IMG/VR virus record: IMGVR_UViG_2923307698_000002
Location: 1-55,083 of that record
Origin: a virus
Lineage: Duplodnaviria > Heunggongvirae > Uroviricota > Caudoviricetes
Length of the DNA: 55,083 bases
Direction: 5' to 3' (one strand)
Shown here piece after piece: positions 4,342-13,338 of the stretch. Both the position numbers and the translations under genes were made by a program. Position 1 is the first letter of the stretch; each line of letters opens with the position of its first letter. The notes under the pieces were generated by a model, which made no database searches, was not told where the DNA came from, and worked only from the letters and a program-made list of their open reading frames with translations.

Positions 4342-4575
4342 TTATTCTCCGGTGTGCTGTTCGTTATATCTGTCGTGCAATAGATCTATTTCTTGCAGTT
4401 CCATTATTACAGGCTCAAGAAGCGTTATTAATGCTGTGGCAATTCTTGATTTTTGTTTGTCGCGTTCATTGTCGCCAAGTGTTTCAAGCCATATGCGCAA
4501 TATTTCGTACATACCTTCAGCGTAAGCAAGGGCACTAAATGCGCGGTCTATTGTTTCGTGGTAAATATCACGCAT
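4342..4575 (-). CDS. hypothetical protein (77 aa)
   Basis: ORF in tight operon arrangement. Confidence 0.4.
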   Translation of the reverse strand: MRDIYHETIDRAFSALAYAEGMYEILRIWLETLGDNERDKQKSRIATALITLLEPVIMELQEIDLLHDRYNEQHTGE

Positions 4576-4576
4576 A

Positions 4577-4798
4577 TTAATCCCCGTCCGTTGTTTTTCT
4601 TAAAACAGCTTCTGTCACGAAATCAGCATAGTTAGCGGCAATATCAAGAATATTTAGCCCTGTATCTCTGTGCTCATCAGTGCAAAGAAAGAAAAAAGCC
4701 ACCCGCATAATTTCAGATATTGACGAAAGCGCATCAGCCGCATCATCAGGAACGCCGGAAAATTCTTGTTTCAGGGAATTAAAACGATCATCACGCAT
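4577..4798 (-). CDS. hypothetical protein (73 aa)
   Basis: ATG at 4798 is 2 nt downstream of a G8 homopolymer on the coding strand. Confidence 0.35.
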   Translation of the reverse strand: MRDDRFNSLKQEFSGVPDDAADALSSISEIMRVAFFFLCTDEHRDTGLNILDIAANYADFVTEAVLRKTTDGD

Positions 4799-5013
4799 AA
4801 CCCCCCCCCATTTTCACAATCAGCAACAAGAATATTTTTAGCGTCATTCAGCGACCGCGTTGCGATGTATCGGATACATTCCAGGGCGAACTGTGTCCGG
4901 TCTTTCTGTTCTTCTCCCTGCGCAAGCTCTGCAGTGCATTCAATATCGATAAGCGCGTGCATCAGCGTAGTGAGCGCGGCGGCTGCTGCGTCCGGTGTGG
5001 TTTTATTGCACAT
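4771..5013 (-). CDS. hypothetical protein (80 aa)
   Basis: Start placed at ATG 5013 with AGGAGG at 6-7 nt; 3' end overlaps the next gene across the G8 tract. Confidence 0.35.
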   Translation of the reverse strand: MCNKTTPDAAAAALTTLMHALIDIECTAELAQGEEQKDRTQFALECIRYIATRSLNDAKNILVADCENGGGLCVMIVLIP

Positions 5014-5203
5014 GGCACACCTCCTGACGAATACGGGCGGCGAATACAGCAACACAACCGGACGGGCAACGGCTACGCGCTTCGCGTTCCGTCCAGGCGG
5101 TTACGTGGATGATTTGAGATTCTCCGGCACTCAGTGCCAGAAAACGCCACACAAAGGCCGTTTGTGTGTGTACAAGGTGTGGTATATGATTTACGGCAAC
5201 CAT
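5003..5203 (-). CDS. hypothetical protein (66 aa), first gene of leftward operon
   Basis: ATG 5203 with AGGAG at 5 nt. Confidence 0.3.
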   Translation of the reverse strand: MVAVNHIPHLVHTQTAFVWRFLALSAGESQIIHVTAWTEREARSRCPSGCVAVFAARIRQEVCHVQ

Positions 5204-5387
5204 AACGGCTCCTAGTTTACGTTGTTGGTTAGACGCCCCGTATGTGTTCCCGCACTGCGGGGTGTTGTTATTTGGTGCATCGCACCATCTGTTTTTAACC
5301 TATCAGCAAGTGAATCGCACTTCAAGCCTTTTTCTCTGAATTTTTTTTGTGTATACTGAATCGCACCAACTTAGAGAGGATTCTGTA
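5204..5387. promoter_or_regulatory. divergent promoter/operator region of the satellite
   Basis: Three copies of TG(A/C)ATCGCAC at 5279-5285, 5314-5320 and 5360-5366; palindrome CCGCAcTGCGG near 5251; TATACT -10-like element; between divergent operons. Confidence 0.45.
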
Positions 5388-5567
5388 ATGGCAACAGGTT
5401 CAACAAATAATAAGTCGCAACAGTTAAATGCCAGATTCCCGCATGATGTTGTTGCAGACTTAGAAAAAAATTTAGATGAAGGTGAAAGCAAAGCGCAATT
5501 TATAGTTACTGCCGTTAAAGGCGAAATCAAACGCCGCCAGCGCCGCAAGGCCAAAGAGCAGGAGTAA
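5388..5567 (+). CDS. ribbon-helix-helix (CopG-like) regulator
   Basis: ATG 5388 after AGAGAGGA; N-terminal beta-strand/helix pattern (QQLNARFPHDVVADLEK...AQFIVTAVKGEI) typical of RHH proteins; basic C-tail. Confidence 0.5.
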   Translation: MATGSTNNKSQQLNARFPHDVVADLEKNLDEGESKAQFIVTAVKGEIKRRQRRKAKEQE

Positions 5568-5609
5568 CCATCACCAGCGCCGTGGTGTGAGGTACTACGG
5601 CGCATTGCT

Positions 5610-5798
5610 ATGCAGGACAACACAATGACCGATAAAGAATTGACCAAAACATTATCACCGGCACGGAAAAGACGGCGCAGAAAGATAGAGCATGAATCAG
5701 AAAGATTCGCACCATGTGCTTTTGCCCTTGAGCAATTCCTTAAAGAGTACAGGGAAAAGCGCTCATTGCAGGTATGGCAACGAACTGAACCAGACTGA
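5610..5798 (+). CDS. hypothetical basic protein (62 aa)
   Basis: ORF downstream of the RHH gene; start may be the internal ATG at 5625. Confidence 0.3.
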   Translation: MQDNTMTDKELTKTLSPARKRRRRKIEHESERFAPCAFALEQFLKEYREKRSLQVWQRTEPD

Positions 5799-5885
5799 TT
5801 GCATTGCCCACCAGCCTGATAGCGGCTATCATCCCCGTGCTTATGTTTGGGATCACATACACATAAGGCGCAGCGGGTTAATTGT

Positions 5886-5912
5886 TCAGAAAGGCGGCTC
5901 CATATCGGGGCC
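5886..5912 (+). terminator. rho-independent terminator
   Basis: GC hairpin (gcggctcc...ggggccgc) followed by T6; lies between convergent genes. Confidence 0.4.
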
Positions 5913-5946
5913 GCTTTTTTCGTGTTTGTCATATCTGTGATACCCG

Positions 5947-6153
5947 TTAAGCAGCCGTTCCGCGTGCTTCCTCTTCGCGTTCTTTCTGCCAGGACAACAC
6001 ATCATCCTCATACCATCCGCGACGGCGTAAACCAACGCGAAAACCCTGCGGAAATTCTCCGGCGTTGATCATGCTTTGCAGCGTGCTGTCTGCCTTGATG
6101 TGGATAATTTTTTTTACTTCCTGGCGAAAGATAATTTTTCTGATTGCTTCCAT
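5947..6153 (-). CDS. alpA: AlpA-family transcriptional regulator/excision activator
   Basis: 68 aa; pattern IIRQ-EV...L...AGEFP...G.RR.GW.EDDV..W matches AlpA/Vis-type MerR-like HTH as recalled. Confidence 0.7.
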   Translation of the reverse strand: MEAIRKIIFRQEVKKIIHIKADSTLQSMINAGEFPQGFRVGLRRRGWYEDDVLSWQKEREEEARGTAA

Positions 6154-6282
6154 CGTGATTTACCTTGTGAATCCGGTGTATTCCGGTGACAAATACGGTA
6201 AATCATCGGATATGGGTAAAAACAGTTCCCACCGTTTTTAAACGGTATACACCGTTTTTTATATTGATGATTTGAAATGGAA

Positions 6283-6310
6283 TTATAAAAAAAGCGGCAT
6301 TTCTGCCGCT
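6283..6310 (-). terminator. rho-independent terminator
   Basis: 7-bp stem AGCGGCA/TGCCGCT with T-run on the minus strand, downstream of the 83-aa gene. Confidence 0.45.
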
Positions 6311-6320
6311 TCCAGGATTG

Positions 6321-6572
6321 TTACCGCCATTTTTTGGGCCTGCCTCCGATCTTCATAGATGCCGGACGTACGACCTTATCAATACTTACCGCCAGATTTC
6401 TGGAAGCGCCACGGGATACCAGAAAATCTACTACCTGTTTTTTTGATGGGGCCGTCGTTCTGTCCTCCGGATCGTAGGTTGACCAAAATTCATGCTGAAC
6501 CATCAGGGCCAGTTGCAGCCCGTCGCAATTGCATCTGATATTTTTTTGCATCTTAACGGTTTCATGTTTCAC
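6321..6572 (-). CDS. hypothetical protein (83 aa)
   Basis: ORF between alpA and int; basic C-terminus. Confidence 0.4.
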   Translation of the reverse strand: MKHETVKMQKNIRCNCDGLQLALMVQHEFWSTYDPEDRTTAPSKKQVVDFLVSRGASRNLAVSIDKVVRPASMKIGGRPKKWR

Positions 6573-6649
6573 GGCCTTGTCGTTAAATTTGATGCAATTA
6601 TACGACGGTTTTACATGGTTTTCGTAGTTTTTACTGGTTTTCTGTACAG

Positions 6650-7891
6650 CTACACGGCTCGGATACCCCTTTTACCACTGGCGAGGGTTACGCCCGTCGC
6701 CGCAGCCTCGACAAATTCGCCCCACCAGCGCATCAGCACGATGCGTTTTTCTATGTAGTTGCTCCGGTTGTATGCCCGTCTAACTTCGTTGGTGTCGACG
6801 TGGGCAAGTGCCGCCTCTATTACGTCCGGCTCGAATCCTTCCTCGTTCGCTGCTGTGCTGAATATGGCGCGTAATCCATGAGACACCAGCACGCCAGCGA
6901 ATCCCATACGCCGCAATGCTGCGTTAGCTGTCTGGCTGTTCATCGGCTGCTGTGGGTCTTTCAGACTTGGGAAAACGTAATTGCGGTGGTGGCTGATTGG
7001 TTTCATGGCCTCCAGCACCGCCATAGCCTGACCGGAAAGCGGGATAACGTGATCCCTGCGCATCTTCATGCGTCCGGCAGGTATCGTCCATTGCTTCGCG
7101 TCCAGGTTGATTTCATCCCACCGCGTTGATGACGCTTCGGCGGGACGGGTTACGGTCAGTAACTGCCATTCAATCAGTAATCTGGTCTGCCGTTCTGTTG
7201 CCGATACTGATAAAGCCTGCATAAGCTCGGGCAGCTGTTCGGGGCGGATTGTTGGCATATGTTTTTTTACAGGTGAGGGAAACGCCTTACGCACATTCAT
7301 AGCCGGATTGGCATCAATCAGCCCACTGTTGGCGGCGTAATCCATTACCTCATTAACGCGCTGTAAAACCCGCTTGAGTGTTTCCAGGTTGCCGCGCTCC
7401 TTGATGGGGGTAAGCACTTCAACGAACCTTCGGGCGGTGAGGGTATCTATTGGCGTGTTGCCGATGAACGGGAATACATATTTATCCAGCGAACGCCAGA
7501 TGTCTTTAATCGTGTTGGGGGCCAGATTCTGGCTGATTTTCACCTGGTACCATGCCGCCGCCACATTTTCGAACGTGTTCCCTTGTCTTCGGGCCTCTGT
7601 CTCTCTTTTTTGCCTCTCGTGGTCCTGTGGGTCAGTTCCGGCACTGATTAACGTCCTGTACTCGCTACGGCGTTTTCTGGCATCAGCCAGGGAAACATCT
7701 TCAAGCGATCCAAAACTCAGCAATATTCTTTTTTTGTCCGATGGTCGGTAGTAGGAAAATCTCCAGAGTTTTGATCCAGACGGTTTGACCAGGAGAAAAA
7801 GCCCTCCGCCGTCCTGCAGGGTGTACTCCTTTTGCGCTGGTCTGGCTGCTTTGATCTGCACTGTGGTTAATGGGTGTGTTTTTCTCGCCAT
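6650..7891 (-). CDS. int: tyrosine integrase, P4-like
   Basis: ATG at 7891 (MARKTHPLT...); N-terminal arm-binding-like domain and C-terminal catalytic domain with conserved R...H.LR...Y pattern; adjacent to tRNA fragment. Confidence 0.9.
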   Translation of the reverse strand: MARKTHPLTTVQIKAARPAQKEYTLQDGGGLFLLVKPSGSKLWRFSYYRPSDKKRILLSFGSLEDVSLADARKRRSEYRTLISAGTDPQDHERQKRETEARRQGNTFENVAAAWYQVKISQNLAPNTIKDIWRSLDKYVFPFIGNTPIDTLTARRFVEVLTPIKERGNLETLKRVLQRVNEVMDYAANSGLIDANPAMNVRKAFPSPVKKHMPTIRPEQLPELMQALSVSATERQTRLLIEWQLLTVTRPAEASSTRWDEINLDAKQWTIPAGRMKMRRDHVIPLSGQAMAVLEAMKPISHHRNYVFPSLKDPQQPMNSQTANAALRRMGFAGVLVSHGLRAIFSTAANEEGFEPDVIEAALAHVDTNEVRRAYNRSNYIEKRIVLMRWWGEFVEAAATGVTLASGKRGIRAV

Positions 7892-7925
7892 ATGTCTATG
7901 ATTCCACACGAAAAAACAGGGTTTT

Positions 7926-7975
7926 AGTTATACGGCTTTAGTTATACGCCAGCCCGTATAACTAAACGTATAACT
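7926..7975. promoter_or_regulatory. putative integrase arm-type binding sites
   Basis: Four copies of a 9-bp motif: AGTTATACG at 7926-7934 and 7940-7948, inverted CGTATAACT at 7955-7963 and 7967-7975, between int start and the att core. Confidence 0.4.
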
Positions 7976-8109
7976 AAAAAATCCGGCTGATAGCTTATAA
8001 ATCCGGTGATGTTCGGTGACTAAAAAACATAAAAAAACCCGCCAATCAAGTGATTAGCGGGTTATCCCTGTCTTATCCGGTGCTTTCCGGTGATATCCGG
8101 TGGGCGATT

Positions 8110-8155
8110 TGGTCGGCACGAGAGGATTTGAACCTCCGACCCCCGACACCCCATG
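8110..8155 (-). other. attachment-site core: 3' 46 nt of tRNA-Pro(GGG)-like gene (partial tRNA, no 5' half)
   Basis: Minus strand reads CATGGGGTGTCGGGGGTCGGAGGTTCAAATCCTCTCGTGCCGACCA: anticodon loop with GGG, variable loop, T-arm GGAGG/TTCAAAT/CCTCT, acceptor and CCA; upstream sequence cannot form acceptor or D arms. Confidence 0.65.
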
Positions 8156-8370
8156 TCACCGCGCCTGAAACGCTGGAGACCGCGCCATTGCTGGGCTGGC
8201 AGGGTGTTTCACTGTGTGCGCAAACAGTGCATAATTCGCAAAATTCACGCTATATACATCAATGAGTTAAGAGAGATTTTTCCCCACTCCTAAATGGTCA
8301 GTTTTTGGAGCATTACTATATTAATAGGTTCCGTCTATAGCACTTTTTGATTTGCTTCTAATATGCTTTT

Positions 8371-8397
8371 CTGTGGATAAGATTTAGTTATCCACAG
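8371..8397. promoter_or_regulatory. inverted pair of DnaA-box-like sequences
   Basis: CTGTGGATAA-gatttag-TTATCCACAG; TTATCCACA matches the DnaA box consensus; about 200 bp upstream of the 255-aa gene. Confidence 0.3.
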
Positions 8398-8593
8398 ACT
8401 TATCTCCTAAGTTTCCGAGCGGCTACATGTTTTTTGTTGATTGTTTTATGTTTGGCGTAAAGTCAACAATTACTTCGCTTTTTGACCATTTTAGCCCATT
8501 GGAAATTACGATCATCTTCATGTAACCTTCTAAAACTTACTAAGATTGCAGAAGTTAAAGCAACATAGCTCGTAGTTTCTTAAAGGTGATTTA

Positions 8594-9361
8594 ATGCCAC
8601 AGCCGGCGCTAAAAGCGAACGAAATCAGCAGTGAATTAATCGATATTCTTGCGGCTCGGAATACGATATCCGAAATGCAATATTTTCGTTATATCAGAGA
8701 TATAGAAAAGTTGCGCGACAGCGCATCTGAGGACTATCTCAAAGCGTTGGCTAATGGTGCTTTTGGGCGTAAAGATACTGCAGTTGCATTCTTTGAAGAA
8801 GCATTGAAGCATAACAACCTGATCATTGCTCAAAATTATGTAGTTTATCTCAACGATTACGGCAGCTTCCGTGAAGTTGAACAAGTGGTAAATCGATTAG
8901 TTGAACGTTATAACTCCCCTACGATGCTGTCCCATGCATGGGAAGCTAACTTGTTCTTGGGGCGTATTGACAAAGCGCTCTACTATGCTGAGAGATTGAT
9001 AAGTATGGTAGATGAAAAGGAGGCTGAATTGGTTAAGCACCTCGCAGCCACAGCACTGGCCCAATCCACGACCTTCAAAAGTGCAACTGGAATTACTGAT
9101 GAAGAACTACAGGATATTGCAAACCGCATAGTGGATATCATGGCTGACCATAAAGTTAGTCCTGTTGCTATGTCTTTCTGCTCTATCCCTGAAGAGCGTA
9201 CGTCATCATATGTCATGGCAGTTAATACTGAAGATTCTGATGTTCTCTCTGATATGAACTTGGATATAGCATTTTCTCTTGCAGAAAATGAAAGTTTGAT
9301 TGGAAAACCCTTCAGCGTATGGTTTGAAGGGCGTTTGGAGGAACCTGCGCGTGCCAGTTAA
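8594..9361 (+). CDS. hypothetical protein (255 aa), first gene of two-gene cargo operon
   Basis: ATG 8594 after AAGGTGA; AT-rich codon usage unlike the flanking phage DNA; no family recognised. Confidence 0.55.
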   Translation: MPQPALKANEISSELIDILAARNTISEMQYFRYIRDIEKLRDSASEDYLKALANGAFGRKDTAVAFFEEALKHNNLIIAQNYVVYLNDYGSFREVEQVVNRLVERYNSPTMLSHAWEANLFLGRIDKALYYAERLISMVDEKEAELVKHLAATALAQSTTFKSATGITDEELQDIANRIVDIMADHKVSPVAMSFCSIPEERTSSYVMAVNTEDSDVLSDMNLDIAFSLAENESLIGKPFSVWFEGRLEEPARAS

Positions 9362-9734
9362 TAGTTCCGATTTTATCGCTTTCGCAAAAGATTGTGAAAA
9401 GCGTAACGACGAAATTGGTTACAGAAACGCTGTCGCACGTGCGTATTATGGTGCTTATCACCACGTACTTCCGTGTTTGACCATGGGGCCGAAAGAAAGT
9501 CACCAAGGCCTCATTGACTATCTTGTTAACGATGCTTGGAAGGGTAACGAACCTTTTGAAAAAAGAGACTTAATTGGTTTGGGGTATGCTCTTCAATCGC
9601 TTAAGGATCAGAGAATAGTTTGTGATTACAGACTTAACGACACTATTACGCCAACCCAATCAAGCACCGCGATTAAGACTGCAGAGAAATTAATCCAGCG
9701 TTGCGCTAATATGACCAAGTCTAAAGCGTCCTAA
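9351..9734 (+). CDS. hypothetical protein (127 aa), possible HEPN-like fold
   Basis: Probable GTG start at 9351 after GGAGG, overlapping the upstream stop; contains R-x6-H (RAYYGAYH); assignment speculative. Confidence 0.45.
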   Translation: MPVNSSDFIAFAKDCEKRNDEIGYRNAVARAYYGAYHHVLPCLTMGPKESHQGLIDYLVNDAWKGNEPFEKRDLIGLGYALQSLKDQRIVCDYRLNDTITPTQSSTAIKTAEKLIQRCANMTKSKAS

Positions 9735-9740
9735 TCCCCA

Positions 9741-9770
9741 AAATTGGCCTCATTTGAGGCCAATTTTATT
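9741..9770 (+). terminator. rho-independent terminator
   Basis: Hairpin TTGGCCTC-attt-GAGGCCAA followed by TTTTATT. Confidence 0.5.
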
Positions 9771-9774
9771 ATGC

Positions 9775-10140
9775 ATTGTATTTAATTTCACCGTGCGGAA
9801 GCATTACCCAATCATATGGTTCCGCGTATAAATTTTCGTTGATTTCGCGTCGCTGTGGGCTATGAGCCCTTGTGGTCTACTCCCTGTTTATCAAACAAAA
9901 TGCAGCTAGTGCGCGTATTTTGTGGAATGTGGGGGCGCAGCTCCATCGTCAAATTATTACACAAGCCTAACGAATCACGGGGCAATGAAAAGTATGGCTA
10001 AGATAGGCAGGTGCGGATACCTCTTTACTGCGTTTGTTATTACGCTCGGTATACGGTGAACGATATACGGGCAGGCAACGTTATCGCGACTGTTATCAAT
10101 AATACGTTTCAGTTTGTCCTCGAACTACATCACAACCGGC
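9775..10140 (-). pseudogene. integrase 3'-end remnant (frameshifted fragment)
   Basis: Nucleotide and translated similarity to the 3' third of the intact int at 11312-11700 (e.g. ...QGLIAHSDAKSTKIYT vs ...QGRMAHSDAKSTKIYT); 1-nt indel and stops; no 5' part. Confidence 0.6.
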
Positions 10141-10217
10141 TTGAAAACTAATTACTGGATTTTGTGCCTCCATAATCATATGATTTAAAATGTTATTTTA
10201 TAAAAAAGGAGTTGTAT

Positions 10218-11174
10218 ATGACCAATTTGTATAAGTTTATGGGAGCGGATATAATTGATAAATTGATGATGGATGAAACACATATAGGAATAAAATTCTC
10301 TCATTTACATGAATATAATGATCCCTATGAGTTTTTCCTTACTATTGATTTTAATCGCGGTTCTGATGAGTTAGCATTTTACAATGAAATGATTGGCATG
10401 GTTACAAAACAACCAGCAACTTGTTTTACGAAAAGCCCTGTGATACCACCTATGTGGGCACATTATGCAGGTAATTCTTCTGGTTTTGTAATAGAGATTA
10501 ATGAGGAGAAGTTTAAAAAGTATTTGGATGAAATCGGCTTCCAGGATCATAGTTCAATAGCAGATGTTGAATATAAAGATTCTCCAGATACAGGTATTGA
10601 AGACATTCTGGCGAGAGCATTTCATATCTGTAAACCTCGTTATATCTACTGGCTACAATCCTGTATAATGACAGCCGCATATTTGACAAAACAAACTTGC
10701 TGGAGTTATGAGCAGGAACGTCGCGTAATAATTAATGAGAAAGCACTTACTAAACTGAATGACAATCTTATGCTCCTTCCGGTACCGATTAATTGTATAA
10801 CTGGAGTTATAGTTGGGCACAAATCAAATGATTTATTAAAGCAGAAAATTCAATCTTTAGCTAAAAAGGCTAAATGTAGATATTTCGAAATGGTAATAGG
10901 AAAAACAACAACTACACCATTTCTTTTATCTCAAAATCTCAAATCACACCAATTTATTAATGGCAATATAATACCTGCATCAAGGCAATGTAAAAAATGT
11001 TATGAGCCTTTAAACATGGAAAATAAAGTTTGTGGCTGGTGTGGAATTACTAATCATGATGTGAAAATGGCAGAGTACCGTAATTCATTTCGAATGATAG
11101 CCAACTATGGTGGGCTGGATAAATATATATCATCCATGAATAAGATTACTGAAGAGTATAATAAGGGTAAATAA
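10218..11174 (+). CDS. DUF2971-like protein with C-terminal zinc ribbon
   Basis: ATG 10218 after AAAGGAG; motifs LYKF...FS...NDPYEF, MWAHYA, WSYEQERR recalled as DUF2971 signature; C-x2-C-x13-C-x2-C at the C-terminus; AT-rich. Confidence 0.55.
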   Translation: MTNLYKFMGADIIDKLMMDETHIGIKFSHLHEYNDPYEFFLTIDFNRGSDELAFYNEMIGMVTKQPATCFTKSPVIPPMWAHYAGNSSGFVIEINEEKFKKYLDEIGFQDHSSIADVEYKDSPDTGIEDILARAFHICKPRYIYWLQSCIMTAAYLTKQTCWSYEQERRVIINEKALTKLNDNLMLLPVPINCITGVIVGHKSNDLLKQKIQSLAKKAKCRYFEMVIGKTTTTPFLLSQNLKSHQFINGNIIPASRQCKKCYEPLNMENKVCGWCGITNHDVKMAEYRNSFRMIANYGGLDKYISSMNKITEEYNKGK

Positions 11175-11311
11175 ATTTTATTAATAAATATTGCTTTCTG
11201 GACAAGGGAGAAGTTATGGTAAATGGGCATAGAACTGCCTTTTAAATTAAGCTTTACTCTATGCCTTAGCAACCGTTATTGTCAGTCAAAATAAAGTGGA
11301 GAATTTAATAA

Positions 11312-12496
11312 CTAACCGGTTTTAATTTCTCCATGAGGGACAACAATCCAATCTATATGATTTTTAGTATAAATTTTAGTAGATTTCGCATCGCTATGTG
11401 CCATTCGTCCCTGCGGATCAATCCCTTGTTTATCAAATAGGTGAGCTGCCAAAGCTCTTATTTCATGGAATGTAGGTCTTTGTTCCATTGCTAGATGATT
11501 GCATAGTCCGAGTTTGTCTCGCACGGAAGAGAATGACCGACTCAAATAATCTGGTGCAACTTGAGTTGGGTGCGAAACCTCTTTACTGCGTTTAACATGC
11601 CGTTCTGGGATTCTATGAACGACAAAGGGACTGGCCACATTGTCACGGCTATTGTCAATTATCCGTTTCAATTCTTCACCAATTGGTATTGCAACATGTG
11701 ATGCCTCCTTTTTTTGTACTTTTTGCCTATGGATGTATAGTGTACCATATATGCCATTTTGTGGTTGTTCGAACCAAACACATCCACATAAACCGTCTTT
11801 AGGTTCGCGAATTGAGTAACGGATTCGCGATACTTCGAGTCGTGCATGTGTAGTCTGCAATGCTAGGTCCATTGCTGTTCTTAACCATGGTGCAGCGGCC
11901 TGCCTGATAGCTATAAAATGCTCGAGTGACAGGCGCCGTCTTTTCTTCTCATCAGTCCTACGCATTTTTTTTCTGATGGCCGGGTTATCCTGCATTAGTG
12001 ATTCATCGACCGCATAAGAGAACAACTTTTTAAGAAAGCTGACCTTTCTGTTCTGCACATTTGCGGATGCGCTGGCATGATATTTGTTGATGTAGGCATT
12101 AACGTGTTCAAGTTCGATATCGCATGCCGGAACATTTACGAAAAACGCTTTTACGCGTAGAGCGTCATTTTTCCAGTCATCTAAGGTACTCTGGGAAGGT
12201 CGTTCGTCTTCGATAATTCTGGCCATTATGTGATCGACATGTTCAGCAAATGGTTTTGCTTCTCCGGTGACCCCGCCAGATTCTCTAATAAGATTATCCA
12301 CTGATGGGTATAATTCTGATCGCATCCTCAGGTTGTACTCTCTGGCGATTGCAACGGCTATTGCCCGATCCTTACCTATATTTTTCTTTTTTCCGGTAAT
12401 AAGTGTGAATTTATAAACACCTCGATCTTTATCAAAAACCAGATAATCAGGAAGATGTCTGTATTCTTTTTTACGTGGCCTTGCCGCCATGGTCAT
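11312..12496 (-). CDS. int: tyrosine integrase, lambda-type
   Basis: 394 aa; N-terminal arm-binding region and C-terminal catalytic domain; ATGA overlap with xis. Confidence 0.9.
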   Translation of the reverse strand: MTMAARPRKKEYRHLPDYLVFDKDRGVYKFTLITGKKKNIGKDRAIAVAIAREYNLRMRSELYPSVDNLIRESGGVTGEAKPFAEHVDHIMARIIEDERPSQSTLDDWKNDALRVKAFFVNVPACDIELEHVNAYINKYHASASANVQNRKVSFLKKLFSYAVDESLMQDNPAIRKKMRRTDEKKRRRLSLEHFIAIRQAAAPWLRTAMDLALQTTHARLEVSRIRYSIREPKDGLCGCVWFEQPQNGIYGTLYIHRQKVQKKEASHVAIPIGEELKRIIDNSRDNVASPFVVHRIPERHVKRSKEVSHPTQVAPDYLSRSFSSVRDKLGLCNHLAMEQRPTFHEIRALAAHLFDKQGIDPQGRMAHSDAKSTKIYTKNHIDWIVVPHGEIKTG

Positions 12497-12702
12497 CCCT
12501 CATTTATTAACTTGCGAACAGCTTGACTAACCATTGAGTCGACTCCCCATTTTTCTGTTTCGCAGACAAAAACAGAACCGTCCACGATACGCCCCATGAG
12601 CAGACCGTTCTCGACCCAGCGTTTTATCGTTCGGTTGTCAGGAATTGAGCCATTAGAGAATTCACGGCGTCCCCATTGGCTCGCTTTCATTAGTTTTGCC
12701 AT
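12493..12702 (-). CDS. xis: excisionase (Xis-like)
   Basis: Start placed at ATG 12702 with GGAGAAA RBS (69 aa); coupled upstream of int. Confidence 0.6.
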   Translation of the reverse strand: MAKLMKASQWGRREFSNGSIPDNRTIKRWVENGLLMGRIVDGSVFVCETEKWGVDSMVSQAVRKLINEG

Positions 12703-12763
12703 GGCTGTTTCTCCACTTAACCCGCTGCACACGGGCAGTAATATCAAATTTCAGTCCTGATAA

Positions 12764-12979
12764 TTAATTTTGTTCTCTGGTTGCTACCTGTTTAATTGGC
12801 CTGATGCTGTCCAGGAGCAGTCGGCGGCGCGTATTTTCTGCAAAGTGGCGGCGTCCGGTTTCTTTGTGGTAAAACTCGTTTTCTCCGACGACCCACATCC
12901 GCTTTGTCTGGTGCAGTTTTTTTACCTGCGGACCGTTTCGGGTAATAACAATTCCTGTATGAGTTTTTATCACGCTCAT
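12764..12979 (-). CDS. hypothetical protein (71 aa)
   Basis: ATG 12979 with GGAGAA RBS; early-left operon. Confidence 0.4.
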   Translation of the reverse strand: MSVIKTHTGIVITRNGPQVKKLHQTKRMWVVGENEFYHKETGRRHFAENTRRRLLLDSIRPIKQVATREQN

Positions 12980-13338
12980 TTCTTATTCTCCGGTGCTTTC
13001 GGCATTACTGCCCAGTGAGTGATATTGACGTTTTCAAGGTCCCCGACCTGAAATGTCCACTGCCATTCTCCGGTTTCTTTTTGTCCCCAGGTGTACCAGA
13101 GAGAACGCCAGCCAATTAGCCAGCCTTCTCCGTTAGCATCAAATAACAGAACACTTTCATTTGCAGGTGGCAGTTCAGCTGACACTGGTATTATTTTGTT
13201 TTCCAGTGCCGCACATTTAGCTTCAAGCGCGTCGAATTTACGTACTAGGTACTCAGCATTTGTTTCGTTCACTTTCAGATCTCGCGGTACACATTTCCCG
13301 CGAAGAAACCCTTCCATTTCGAAAACATTCATGCGCAT
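12976..13338 (-). CDS. hypothetical protein (120 aa), Trp-rich C-terminus
   Basis: ATGA-coupled ORF in the early-left operon. Confidence 0.45.
   Translation of the reverse strand: MRMNVFEMEGFLRGKCVPRDLKVNETNAEYLVRKFDALEAKCAALENKIIPVSAELPPANESVLLFDANGEGWLIGWRSLWYTWGQKETGEWQWTFQVGDLENVNITHWAVMPKAPENKK

What the first reader, a model, noticed from the sequence alone, without database searches (positions are those of the whole stretch)
5204..5387. Satellite regulatory switch: divergent promoters with three ATCGCAC operator-like repeats next to an RHH regulator
The intergenic region between the leftward rep operon and the rightward RHH gene carries three TG(A/C)ATCGCAC copies and a CCGCAcTGCGG palindrome. 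RHH proteins bind tandem repeats like these, so this is probably the repression/derepression control region that senses the helper phage.
Basis: partly seen in the sequence, partly recalled or inferred. Interest (0 to 1): 0.35.

Follow-up and report, generated by a model that had tools for sequence, protein, structure and literature searches.

The report
Satellite repressor switch with antisense RNA
The three repeats are real and look like the operators of a small Arc-like repressor that locks the replication operon of a phage-parasitic island found in about 29% of complete E. coli genomes. The neighbouring "palindrome" is instead part of the terminator of a previously uncatalogued antisense RNA.

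Summary
**Observation.** Confirmed. TG(A/C)ATCGCAC occurs three times in 55 kb, at 5276, 5311 and 5357.

**What the repeats are.** Each is an 11-13 bp site, GGTG-N5-CACC. Their geometry is conserved in about 50 related loci across Enterobacterales:
- O3 starts at the last base of the ylcI -10 (TATACT).
- O2 fills the spacer of the leftward promoter.
- O1 lies just downstream of that promoter's predicted start.

**Who binds them.** The 5-bp core is the same in all sites of a locus. It differs between 10 classes that track residues 12-14 of the adjacent 59-aa YlcI/YnfO protein, which has an Arc-like ribbon-helix-helix (RHH) fold. The core does not track AlpA, integrase, Icd or RepA. In E. coli, near-identical left flanks carry swapped repressor+operator cassettes.

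**The palindrome.** CCGCAcTGCGG is not an operator. It lies in a hairpin (5232-5266) that covaries, is selected on the + strand (115 G·U against 4), and has a T-rich tail. This is the terminator of a predicted ~80-nt RNA antisense to the ribosome-binding site and start codon of the icd-like gene. The RNA is absent from Rfam.

**Closest analogue.** P22 immI (Mnt/Arc plus sar RNA).

**Limits.** Binding, repression and RNA expression are inferred. Helper sensing is untested.

The parts
5003..5203 (-). icd-like gene (66 aa), first gene of the leftward operon (then 3 small ORFs, DUF4222, RepA-type AAA_25 helicase, TerS, capsid-like gene)
   Evidence: NCBIfam phage_ICD_like 6e-18. Pfam hits for the neighbours. 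RefSeq annotation of the 98.7%-identical island in strain ZH48.
5162..5190 (+). Candidate promoter of the antisense RNA: -35 TTGTGT (5162-5167), 17-nt spacer, -10 TATGAT (5185-5190), inside the first codons of the icd-like gene
   Evidence: A TAnnnT hexamer sits 42-43 nt upstream of the GGTTAGA anchor in nearly all loci, in three different coding contexts. Synonymous sites of the first ~16 icd codons are 90-100% conserved, against 33-74% mid-gene. Candidate only: no start-site data.
5197..5275 (+). Predicted ~75-80-nt cis-antisense RNA. SL1 (5198-5230) carries the anti-Shine-Dalgarno GCUCC (5208-5212) in its loop and covers the icd start codon (CAT, 5201-5203). A GGUUAGA linker follows, then the terminator
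   Evidence: RNAalifold and pair counts on 37 sequences: 23 pairs, 96.7% paired, 15 pairs with compensatory changes, 0/500 shuffles reach this. G·U pairs: 115 on the + strand, 4 on the - strand. Folding energy -31.5 kcal/mol, z -3.4. The covariance model finds one copy in the window and one in O157:H7 locus L046. No Rfam family matches.
5232..5273 (+).
   Evidence: The hairpin is more stable on the + strand in all 41 loci where the GGTTAGA anchor was found (2-10 kcal/mol). 10 of 14 stem pairs show compensatory changes. The short inner part was flagged as terminator-like on the + strand.
5274..5286 (.). O1, GGTGCATCGCACC (repeat 1). About +4 to +17 of the predicted leftward transcript
   Evidence: A site with the class-specific core occurs at -98 to -113 from the ylcI ATG in relatives, in either orientation.
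5297..5325 (-). P_L, the leftward promoter: -35 TTGAAG (5320-5325), 17-nt spacer (5303-5319), -10 TAGGTT (5297-5302), as read on the minus strand. Predicted start near 5290
   Evidence: TTGA(A/C/G)N followed, 16-18 nt away, by a hexamer with TA at positions 1-2 is kept at the same place in most of the 42 loci scored. It matches only 7/12 of the consensus, so the generic scan did not call it.
5309..5321 (.). O2, AGTGAATCGCACT (repeat 2). It occupies the P_L spacer and abuts its -35
   Evidence: Fixed at -73/-74 from the ylcI ATG in nearly all loci.
5329..5357 (+). P_R, the promoter of ylcI: -10 TATACT (5352-5357), T-rich upstream region, weak -35 (TTTTTC, 5329-5334)
   Evidence: The script picked a -10-like hexamer at -36 from the ATG in 40 of 43 regions, TATACT in 32 of them.
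5356..5368 (.). O3, CTGAATCGCACCA (repeat 3). It starts at the last base of the P_R -10 and covers the predicted P_R start
5388..5567 (+). ylcI-type gene: 59-aa Arc-like RHH protein, the proposed repressor (Shine-Dalgarno GAGGA at 5376-5380)
   Evidence: NCBIfam YlcI_YnfO_N, 63.3 bits against a cut-off of 30. AF2 pLDDT 90.5: extended 10-17, helices 19-27 and 35-58. Most top Foldseek hits are known or reported RHH proteins: ParD TM 0.63/0.72, VapB, SegB. Sub-threshold RHH Pfam hits in remote members. Residues 12-14 and 17 are the best predictors of operator class.
5888..5920 (+). Strong stem-loop terminator (14 pairs plus T6) between the rightward ylcI unit and the convergent alpA-like gene (5947-6153, minus strand)

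Best explanation
**Setting.** The 184-bp interval is the control region of a PICI-like satellite at least 8.2 kb long. The window begins inside it, and in the near-identical ZH48 island the genes span about 8.3 kb. Its gene order is int, alpA-like, ylcI, icd-like, DUF4222, RepA helicase, TerS, capsid-like. It holds two control layers.

**Layer 1, protein.** Two back-to-back divergent sigma-70 promoters share three copies of an 11-13 bp site, GGTG-N5-CACC.
- YlcI is a 59-aa Arc-like ribbon-helix-helix protein made from P_R. It most likely binds each site as a dimer.
- The beta-ribbon would lie in the major groove over the 5-bp core. Residues 12 and 14 would read the core. The invariant R16, K9 and S10 would contact the invariant GTG/CAC flanks.
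- O2 fills the spacer of P_L and O1 sits at about +4 to +17. Occupancy should therefore shut off the leftward icd-like/replication/packaging operon.
- O3 covers the P_R start, giving negative autoregulation.
- Repressor and operators form an exchangeable immunity cassette with at least 10 specificities.

**Layer 2, RNA.**
- One stem-loop presents an anti-Shine-Dalgarno loop and covers the icd-like start codon.
- An intrinsic terminator follows and ends just before O1.
- This RNA should block translation of the first leftward gene.

**Status of the steps.**
- Shown computationally: the repeats, their conserved geometry, concerted core changes, protein/core covariation, cassette swaps, RNA covariation and strand bias.
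- Inferred: DNA binding, the sign of regulation, promoter activity, expression of the RNA.
- Unknown: how a helper phage lifts the lock. Two candidates are a helper anti-repressor, and AlpA-driven leftward transcription running antisense through ylcI.
For: **Repeats.** The three matches are exact and the only ones in the window. P is about 5e-10 for the interval.

**Conserved geometry.** In 43 loci from more than 20 genera the geometry is fixed: -10 at -36, O3 adjacent, O2 at -73, O1 at -98 to -113 in either orientation. The consensus is aaGTGaa...CAC.TCAA...GTATAcTGaa...CACc.

**Concerted cores.** In nearly every locus the sites share their core, differing by at most 1-2 bases (exceptions: L013, and the degenerate O2 of L031). 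The cores differ between classes:
- QN: AATCG
- MT: A(A/C)ATA
- QV: (A/C)ATGC
- QS: AACAC
- KQ: GGA(C/T)TC
- QT: ACTCC
- LT/FT: A(A/T)ACA
- ST: TCTTA
- KE: TCAGC

.

**Which residues track the class.** The best class-predicting positions of YlcI are 12, 5, 13, 14 and 17. N7, S10 and R16 are invariant. hhalign places Q12/N14/R16 on Arc Q9/N11/R13.

**Other neighbours do not track the class.** Loci with the window's operator have Int 24-35% identical, Icd 41-49% identical or absent, and different AlpA types. L012, L031 and L043 share one AlpA type but have three different operators.

**Cassette swaps.** Two E. coli loci have near-identical icd and antisense-RNA flanks. L047 carries a different YlcI class with matching operators. 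L046 (O157:H7) carries an unannotated Arc-like ORF with 2x GGTAATTACCAT.

**RHH fold.**

**P_L elements.**

**RNA.**

**Prevalence.** The module occurs in 1572 of 5426 complete E. coli genomes.

**Literature.** A global repressor of Gram-negative PICIs is described as unclear (PMC6092414).
Against: - There is no experimental evidence for binding, repression, promoter use or the RNA.
- The RHH assignment rests on a monomer model and sub-threshold matches: no Pfam hit for the window protein; hhalign to Arc gives 42% with the shallow alignment and 10% with the deeper one; Foldseek E-values are above 5.
- P_L and P_R each match only 7/12 of the sigma-70 consensus and were not called by the scan.
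- Repressor gene and operators are adjacent, so part of the covariation is simple linkage. The argument rests on concerted change of the sites and on where the protein varies.
- Site spacings (35 and 45-46 bp) are not helically phased.
- E. coli K-12 YlcI sits in a lambdoid prophage without this architecture.
- The -35 and spacer of the antisense promoter are unusual. The RNA's 5' end is not defined.
Confidence: 0.72

Rival explanations
1. The repeats are binding sites for the AlpA-like activator encoded 560 bp to the right. AlpA is the only regulator shown so far for Gram-negative PICIs, and it would switch on the leftward operon from here.
For: AlpA activates PICI genes and its own promoter in EcCICFT073 (PMC6092414). 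An alpA-like gene is present at 5947-6153.
Against: The core sequence does not follow AlpA. Loci with the window's AATCG core carry unrelated AlpA types. L012, L031 and L043 share one AlpA type but have AATCG, ATACA and TCTTA cores. O2 in the promoter spacer and O3 over a transcription start are repressor positions, not activator positions.
Confidence: 0.04
2. YlcI binds the sites, but the module is mainly a containment device for a toxic gene. On this view an RHH 'antitoxin-like' regulator plus an antisense RNA keep the Icd-like cell-division inhibitor silent. It would not be the master switch of the satellite cycle, or YlcI would act as a dual repressor/activator, as Mnt does.
For: The first controlled gene is Icd-like. 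An antisense RNA over a toxin's ribosome-binding site is the type I toxin-antitoxin logic (established knowledge). The top structural neighbours are RHH antitoxins, ParD and VapB. P22 Mnt both represses Pant and stimulates its own promoter (established knowledge).
Against: The icd-like gene heads an operon that continues without obvious gaps into DUF4222, the RepA helicase and the packaging genes. Silencing P_L therefore silences the whole cycle. No toxin partner is encoded next to ylcI, which is monocistronic in most loci.
Confidence: 0.15
3. The repeats are iterons of the satellite replication origin, bound by the RepA/primase protein.
For: Direct repeats lie near a replication module. PICI origins are iteron-like (established knowledge).
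Against: Published Gram-negative PICI origins lie downstream of pri/rep, not upstream of the operon (PMC10111431). The same core occurs in loci with no detectable RepA homologue within 4 kb. L016, L021 and L022 have 59-61% identical RepA but a different core. The sites overlap promoter elements at fixed positions.
Confidence: 0.03
4. The repeats and the palindrome are chance features of an AT/GC-mixed intergenic region.
For: The 7-mer ATCGCAC is not over-represented in the window. 2 of 100 shuffles reach three 10-mer matches somewhere in the window.
Against: Clustering gives P about 5e-10. Positions are conserved across genera, with concerted core changes. RNA covariation gives 0/500 shuffles.
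Confidence: 0.01

Closest known systems
Phage P22 immunity I region (mnt / arc / sar RNA / ant)
   Same: Small RHH repressors act at operators that overlap divergent promoters. A maintenance repressor (Mnt) is transcribed divergently from the operon it silences. A short cis-antisense RNA (sar) covers the ribosome-binding site of a gene in that operon. This rests on PMC2629481 and established knowledge. The YlcI beta-strand aligns with Arc residues 9-18.
   Different: The target operon is a satellite replication/packaging operon headed by an Icd-like gene, not an antirepressor. There is one repressor instead of two. There are three dispersed 11-13 bp sites instead of the 17- and 21-bp Omnt/Oarc operators. 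Homology to Arc/Mnt is not statistically established. The antisense RNA targets the first gene and ends next to the promoter.
SaPI Stl / Rpr master repressors of Gram-positive PICIs
   Same: A repressor gene is transcribed divergently from the excision-replication-packaging operon of a phage satellite and holds the island quiescent (PMC6092414). The diversity of repressors suggests hetero-immune types.
   Different: Stl/Rpr are larger helix-turn-helix proteins. Derepression by helper proteins is shown for them and unknown here. Here int and alpA are not co-oriented with the repressor gene.
Phage P1/P7 immI (c4 RNA - icd - ant) and P4 CI RNA immunity
   Same: An Icd-type gene at the head of an operon has its translation start masked by a small structured RNA. 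RNA-based immunity is already reported for some Gram-negative PICIs through Rfam C4/isrK hits (PMC10111431).
   Different: c4 and CI are made from the same strand as their targets and act in trans on short complementary boxes. The RNA here is a true cis-antisense transcript. No C4, isrK or other Rfam model matches at E<=1 in the window or at the gathering score in 12 relatives.
CopG (pMV158) and other plasmid RHH repressors
   Same: A ~45-60-aa RHH protein binds a 13-bp pseudo-symmetric element overlapping a promoter and autoregulates (PMC2724298 abstract; established knowledge). Beta-strand residues set specificity (PMC3413123 abstract).
   Different: CopG is co-transcribed with the gene it controls and binds one site as a tetramer. 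YlcI is divergent and has three separated sites.
AlpA-dependent activation in Gram-negative PICIs (EcCICFT073)
   Same: Same kind of element (int, alpA, rep, terS). AlpA is present in the window.
   Different: AlpA is an activator induced by the helper phage. The sites studied here do not follow AlpA type. The YlcI cassette would be the missing negative arm.

Membership tests
NCBIfam NF041551 YlcI/YnfO family | Profile score above the curated cut-off | tested here: met
   63.3 bits against a cut-off of 30, E 1.5e-17, residues 9-50. RefSeq names the identical protein YlcI/YnfO family.
Ribbon-helix-helix (Arc/MetJ/CopG) DNA-binding proteins | Topology: N-terminal extended strand followed by two helices in ~45-60 residues | tested here: met
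   AF2 with a 40-sequence alignment gives pLDDT 90.5: extended 10-17, H19-27, H35-58. Best Foldseek neighbours are RHH proteins: ParD 8c24_E (TM 0.63/0.72, rmsd 1.7 Å over 45 columns), VapB 3h87_C and SegB 7dv2_A.
Ribbon-helix-helix (Arc/MetJ/CopG) DNA-binding proteins | Statistically significant sequence or profile similarity to a known RHH family | tested here: inconclusive
   No Pfam hit for the window protein. Remote family members give sub-threshold hits to CB_ParB_C (2.7e-4), PSK_trans_fac (2.9e-4), RHH_1 (0.0029), TacA1, RHH_5 and NikA-like. The PDB profile search gives 3no7 at E 0.04. hhalign to Arc gives 42% and 10% probability. Foldseek E-values are above 5.
Ribbon-helix-helix (Arc/MetJ/CopG) DNA-binding proteins | Homodimer forming a two-stranded antiparallel beta-ribbon | not testable with these tools
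   Only single chains can be modelled here.
Ribbon-helix-helix (Arc/MetJ/CopG) DNA-binding proteins | Beta-strand side chains read repeated or palindromic operator sites | tested here: met
   The evidence is indirect. Ten operator-core classes map one-to-one onto residues 12-14 and 17. R16, S10 and N7 are invariant, as are the GTG/CAC flanks.
P22 immI-type control region | RHH repressor gene divergent from the operon it controls, with operators overlapping promoter core elements | tested here: met
   O2 lies in the P_L spacer, O1 just downstream of the predicted start, and O3 over the P_R start. Promoter activity itself was not tested.
P22 immI-type control region | Short cis-antisense RNA over the ribosome-binding site of a gene of the repressed operon | tested here: met
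   Tested in silico only, through covariation, strand bias and a terminator.
P22 immI-type control region | Controlled gene is an antirepressor (ant) | tested here: not met
   The leftward operon encodes Icd-like, DUF4222, RepA helicase, TerS and capsid-like proteins.
C4 / P4 CI / isrK immunity RNAs (Rfam) | Match to the Rfam covariance models | tested here: not met
   No Rfam match at E<=1 in 4500-6700. None at the gathering score around the module in 12 relatives.
Gram-negative PICI (phage-inducible chromosomal island) | int + alpA + replication module + packaging-redirection genes in a small (~8-kb), mostly unidirectional island at a tRNA site, without tail or lysis genes | tested here: met
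   RefSeq annotation of the near-identical island next to tRNA-Pro. A partial tRNA-Pro copy lies at about 8107-8155 in the window. Pfam and NCBIfam hits. Induction by a helper phage is not testable here.
AlpA-binding sites | Site sequence follows the AlpA type | tested here: not met

The most novel reading that the evidence does not exclude
The YlcI-type RHH protein with its three operators, together with the cis-antisense RNA, is the long-missing master repressor (immunity) system of a large class of Gram-negative PICI-like satellites. It exists in at least 10 hetero-immune specificity classes that are exchanged as cassettes. It is the step that a helper phage, directly or through AlpA-driven convergent transcription, must overcome. 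It would also supply a natural recognition code for an RHH beta-strand (residues 12/14 against a 5-bp core).
Probability: 0.45. Interest if true: 0.72.

Novelty: new variant of a known kind. Interest (0 to 1): 0.55.

Why it matters
Gram-negative PICIs are known to need the activator AlpA. The founding paper states that a global repressor is unclear (PMC6092414). This analysis points to a concrete candidate that is easy to test.

- **Repressor.** A 59-aa protein from an uncharacterised 'y-gene' family, with defined operators. The module is present in 29% of complete E. coli genomes and across Enterobacterales.
- **Immunity classes.** The 10 protein/operator classes predict which satellites can coexist and which exclude each other. 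They give a ready-made set of orthogonal repressor/operator pairs. They also offer a natural data set for the RHH recognition code.
- **Antisense RNA.** It is a second, independent prediction. It is a structured ~80-nt RNA with strong covariation that is absent from Rfam, and it sits in pathogenic E. coli O157:H7 among others.

Tried and rejected
1. **Known immunity RNA (P1 c4, P4 CI, isrK, Esr41).** Rejected. Rfam scans of the window at E<=1 and of 12 relatives at the gathering score found nothing at the module. They found only tRNAs and the int-alpA RNA elsewhere. Esr41 is itself an Rfam family.
2. **The short palindrome as an operator, or as a terminator of the leftward mRNA.** Rejected. 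It is not conserved as such. The enclosing hairpin is selected on the + strand, and on the minus strand it is followed by UCUAACC, not a U-run.
3. **AlpA, RepA, Icd or Int as the factor behind the repeats.** Rejected, because none of them follows the core class.
4. **ORF62 (5610-5798) as a second gene of a ylcI operon.** Not conserved outside close E. coli relatives. ylcI is monocistronic elsewhere.
5. **Looking for the module in the experimentally studied EcCICFT073.** I guessed the CFT073 coordinates (1.395-1.48 Mb) and found only the lambdoid prophage and core genes. Dropped, so this remains unresolved.
6. **First AF2 model from 20 close homologues.** pLDDT was 67 and Foldseek found nothing. 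A 40-sequence alignment from the HMM search fixed this.
8. **tblastn of YlcI against 50,697 phage records.** No hit.
9. **E. coli K-12 ylcI (DLP12 prophage).** A distant family member near nohD, without the three-site architecture.
10. **Literature.** No paper links YlcI/YnfO or an RHH protein to satellite control.
Full report
**1. The observation**

The pattern TG(A/C)ATCGCAC occurs exactly three times in the 55,083-bp window. All three copies are on the + strand, at 5276, 5311 and 5357. Shuffles give 0.43 matches per window. A Poisson estimate for three or more inside the 184-bp interval is about 5e-10. The bare 7-mer is not enriched, so the signal is the clustered longer word.

Read in context, each copy is an 11-13 bp pseudo-palindrome, GGTG-N5-CACC:
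- O1 is GGTGCATCGCACC at 5274-5286.
- O2 is aGTGAATCGCACt at 5309-5321.
- O3 is cTGAATCGCACCa at 5356-5368.

The starts are 35 and 46 bp apart, so these are dispersed sites rather than tandem repeats. The palindrome CCGCAcTGCGG is present at 5250-5260.

**2. The setting**

The interval is the whole intergenic region between a leftward operon and a rightward 59-aa gene.
- The leftward operon starts with an Icd-like gene (5003-5203). It continues with three small ORFs, DUF4222, a RepA-type AAA_25 helicase, TerS and a capsid-like gene.
- The rightward gene (5388-5567) belongs to the YlcI/YnfO family (NCBIfam, 63.3 bits against a cut-off of 30).
- To the right lie a convergent alpA-like gene and an integrase.

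A 98.7%-identical island in E. coli ZH48 sits next to tRNA-Pro. The window keeps a partial tRNA-Pro copy at about 8107-8155 and then continues into another island. This is a small PICI-like phage satellite.

For Gram-negative PICIs the literature knows an activator, AlpA. [quoted passage not shown] A later survey places Bro-type genes and immunity RNAs in this zone (PMC10111431).

**3. Conservation of the sites**

A scan of one genome per species with a YlcI alignment returned 42 loci from more than 20 genera of Enterobacterales. Seven more copies were fetched from E. coli genomes.

Upstream of almost every ylcI homologue the geometry is the same:
- A -10-like hexamer sits at -36 from the ATG in 40 of 43 regions. 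It is TATACT in 32 of them.
- One site starts at the last base of that hexamer.
- A second site sits at -73.
- A third sits at -98 to -113, in either orientation.

The flanks GTG and CAC, a TCAA box and a T-rich tract are conserved across all loci. The 5-bp core is not. In nearly every locus the two or three sites share the core, differing by at most one or two bases. The exceptions are L013 and the degenerate O2 of L031. Across loci there are ten core classes.

Three sites that change in concert cannot be explained by linkage or drift. They must be read by one diverging factor.

**4. Which factor reads the sites**

The classes map one-to-one onto the N-terminal strand of YlcI:

| YlcI strand | Operator core |
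|---|---|
| KSQQLNARF | AATCG |
| KSQMTTVRI | A(A/C)ATA |
| KSQQIVSRV | (A/C)ATGC |
| KSLQVSVRL | AACAC |
| KSQKLQ(A/T)RA | GGA(C/T)TC |
| KSRQKTARV | ACTCC |
| KSQL(F/T)TVRV and KSQFMTARV | A(A/T)ACA |
| KSQS(V/I/L)T(V/A)R | TCTTA |
| KSKKLEARV | TCAGC |

I scored every protein position for 'same within class, different between classes'. Positions 12, 5, 13, 14 and 17 come first. N7, S10 and R16 never change.

The other neighbours do not follow the classes.
- Loci with the window's AATCG core have integrases only 24-35% identical. Their Icd is 41-49% identical or absent. Their AlpA types are unrelated.
- Three Xenorhabdus loci with one AlpA type carry three different cores.
- L016, which has another core, has RepA, DUF4222 and Icd genes detectably similar to the window's (47-59% identity). 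These genes are undetectable or more divergent in L002-L012, the loci that share the window's core.

Natural swaps in E. coli make the same point. Strain CS18F has an icd and leader region nearly identical to the window's, yet it carries a class LT YlcI with AAACA sites. In O157:H7 strain 1130 the same flanks enclose a replacement of exactly the operator-plus-ylcI segment. The replacement is an unannotated 57-aa Arc-like ORF (Pfam Arc, E 0.038) with two GGTAATTACCAT palindromes. The slot therefore holds an exchangeable repressor-plus-operator cassette.

**5. Is YlcI an RHH protein?**

- No Pfam model matches the window protein.
- A profile search of 1.84 billion representatives found only 91 clusters.
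- With a 40-sequence alignment of these, AlphaFold gives pLDDT 90.5. The model has an extended segment 10-17 and helices 19-27 and 35-58.
- Most top Foldseek neighbours are known or reported RHH proteins: ParD (TM 0.63/0.72), VapB and SegB. E-values are not significant for so small a protein.
- Remote members give several sub-threshold hits to RHH Pfam families.
- hhalign puts QLNARFPHDV on Arc QFNLRWPREV. This places Q12, N14 and R16 on Arc residues 9, 11 and 13, which contact the bases (the contact assignment is established knowledge).

The fold assignment is therefore well supported at the level of topology. It is only suggestive at the level of homology.

The picture that fits all the data is one dimer per site. 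The variable residues 12/14 would lie over the variable core. The invariant R16 would contact the invariant GTG/CAC. This is an inference.

**6. Promoters**

*P_L.* On the minus strand, TTGAAG (5320-5325), a 17-nt spacer and TAGGTT (5297-5302) form a promoter-like unit. TTGA(A/C/G)N followed 16-18 nt away by a hexamer with TA at positions 1-2 is kept at the same place in most of the 42 loci scored. O2 fills its spacer. O1 lies at about +4 to +17.

*P_R.* It has the conserved TATACT and a weak -35. O3 covers its start.

Both promoters score 7/12 against consensus and were not called by the generic scan. The positions are those of a repressor that silences the operon and autoregulates. The sign of regulation is inferred.

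**7. The palindrome and the antisense RNA**

The short palindrome is not conserved. The 15-pair hairpin around it (5232-5266) is conserved.
- It is more stable on the + strand in all 41 loci where the GGTTAGA anchor was found (2-10 kcal/mol).
- It is followed by a T-rich tail.
- In a 37-sequence alignment the consensus structure has 23 pairs. They are 96.7% paired, and 15 show compensatory changes. None of 500 shuffles reaches these values.
- There are 115 G·U pairs on the + strand against 4 on the minus strand. The structure is therefore selected in a rightward transcript.

Upstream of this terminator, a second covarying stem-loop carries the anti-Shine-Dalgarno sequence (G)CUCC in its loop. 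A closing helix pairs the complement of the icd start codon.

A TAnnnT hexamer sits 42-43 nt upstream of the GGTTAGA linker in three different coding contexts (TATGAT at 5185-5190 in the window). The first ~16 codons of the icd-like gene have 90-100% synonymous-site identity, against 33-74% mid-gene.

The simplest reading is a ~75-80-nt cis-antisense RNA, about 5197-5272, that masks the translation start of the first leftward gene. Supporting points:
- The window sequence folds at -31.5 kcal/mol, z -3.4.
- A covariance model finds one copy in the window. It also finds the O157:H7 copy, which was not in the training set.
- No Rfam family matches.

Its expression and its 5' end are not shown.

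**8. Comparison with known systems**

The closest analogue is the P22 immunity I region. There the RHH repressors Mnt and Arc act at divergent promoters, and the antisense sar RNA covers the ant ribosome-binding site (PMC2629481). This element works like that region but is not a member of it:
- The controlled operon is a satellite replication/packaging operon headed by an Icd-like gene.
- There is one repressor with three dispersed sites.
- Homology to Arc/Mnt is unproven.

It resembles SaPI Stl/Rpr in role but not in protein type. It resembles P1 immI and P4 CI in combining an Icd-type gene with RNA control, but fails their Rfam models.

**9. Distribution**

blastn finds the module in 1572 of 5426 complete E. 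coli genomes, with up to five places per genome. All five genomes in my sample that carry two copies have different classes. That is what hetero-immunity predicts. It is not statistically significant on its own: I estimate about 0.2 by chance.

**10. Verdict**

Its core interpretation is well supported by comparative evidence: the repeats are operators of the adjacent RHH protein at divergent promoters of a satellite. The palindrome was misread, because it belongs to an RNA terminator of a predicted antisense RNA. Nothing here bears on helper sensing.

The mechanism is of a known kind. Its use as the negative control of Gram-negative satellites appears undescribed in the literature I could search. 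The same holds for the ten matched protein/operator classes and the uncatalogued antisense RNA.

Noticed in passing
L046 1617-1848 (E. coli O157:H7 str. 1130, NZ_CP017434.1 about 3125567-3125798): An unannotated 57-aa Arc-like ORF (L046:1675-1848; MSTPLEKRSPPYQMRLPEDF...) with two GGTAATTACCAT palindromes (within 1634-1647 and 1664-1677). It replaces exactly the ylcI-plus-operator segment between flanks shared with the window. RefSeq annotates only a minus-strand 'Icd-like' pseudogene across it.
   Followed up: partly
window 5703-5728: A degenerate copy of O1 plus its right flank: aGATTCGCACCATGTGCTTTTGCCCT against TGCATCGCACCATCTGTTTTTAACCT, 82% over 22 nt. It lies inside ORF62, in the region PGAP calls a pseudogene. 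It may be a vestige of a duplicated control region or a weak fourth site. The O157 copy has one more mismatch.
   Followed up: no
window 5003-5203 and homologues (L003-L043): The first ~16 codons of the icd-like gene (motif TQT(R/H)PK(F/Y)) and its last codons (QE.RH) show near-total synonymous-site conservation across genera, unlike the middle of the gene. The 5' block overlaps the candidate antisense promoter. The constraint on the promoter 'spacer' (GGGCGAGTTTGGG) is unexplained and may mean that the RNA starts further upstream.
   Followed up: partly
L047 535-840, L052 583-888, L053 546-851: Some E. coli YlcI proteins are 101 aa long. They carry a ~42-aa insertion (…EIARRQAEGSGENPLVSSLDALAKVEQIGIKAAEEIGQLV…) between the RHH core and the basic tail. 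This may be an added oligomerisation or sensor segment.
   Followed up: no
L003 7057-7125, L005 1847-1913, L016 6461-6529, L033 6469-6537: The Rfam int-alpA RNA motif (RF02996) is present next to the integrase in several related islands. It was not found in window 4500-6700, where an 83-aa ORF lies between alpA and int.
   Followed up: no
window 8107-8155 and 8156-12496: The island ends in a partial tRNA-Pro copy (the att core). ARAGORN finds no intact tRNA in 7800-13000. Similarity to the ZH48 locus stops at 8155. A second tyrosine integrase gene lies at 11312-12496, so several islands appear to be stacked at this site.
   Followed up: partly
L005/L026, L007/L030, L014/L018, L035/L040, L012/L034: All five genomes that carry two ylcI modules carry two different operator/repressor classes, as expected for hetero-immune co-resident satellites. 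The sample is too small for significance.
   Followed up: no
window 5888-5920: A 14-pair GC-rich stem-loop with T6 lies between the convergent ylcI unit and alpA. On the minus strand it is followed only by CTTTCT, so alpA transcription might read through, antisense to ylcI, into the leftward operon. This is a possible route for AlpA-dependent derepression.
   Followed up: no
L054 8252-8446 (E. coli K-12 ylcI, DLP12 prophage): The family's namesake is also RHH-like (…RNIRFPNQMIEQINIALEQKGSGNFSAWVIEACRRRL…). It sits upstream of nohD in a lambdoid prophage, with a different inverted repeat (CGTCA-N13-TGACG) and no three-site architecture.
   Followed up: partly
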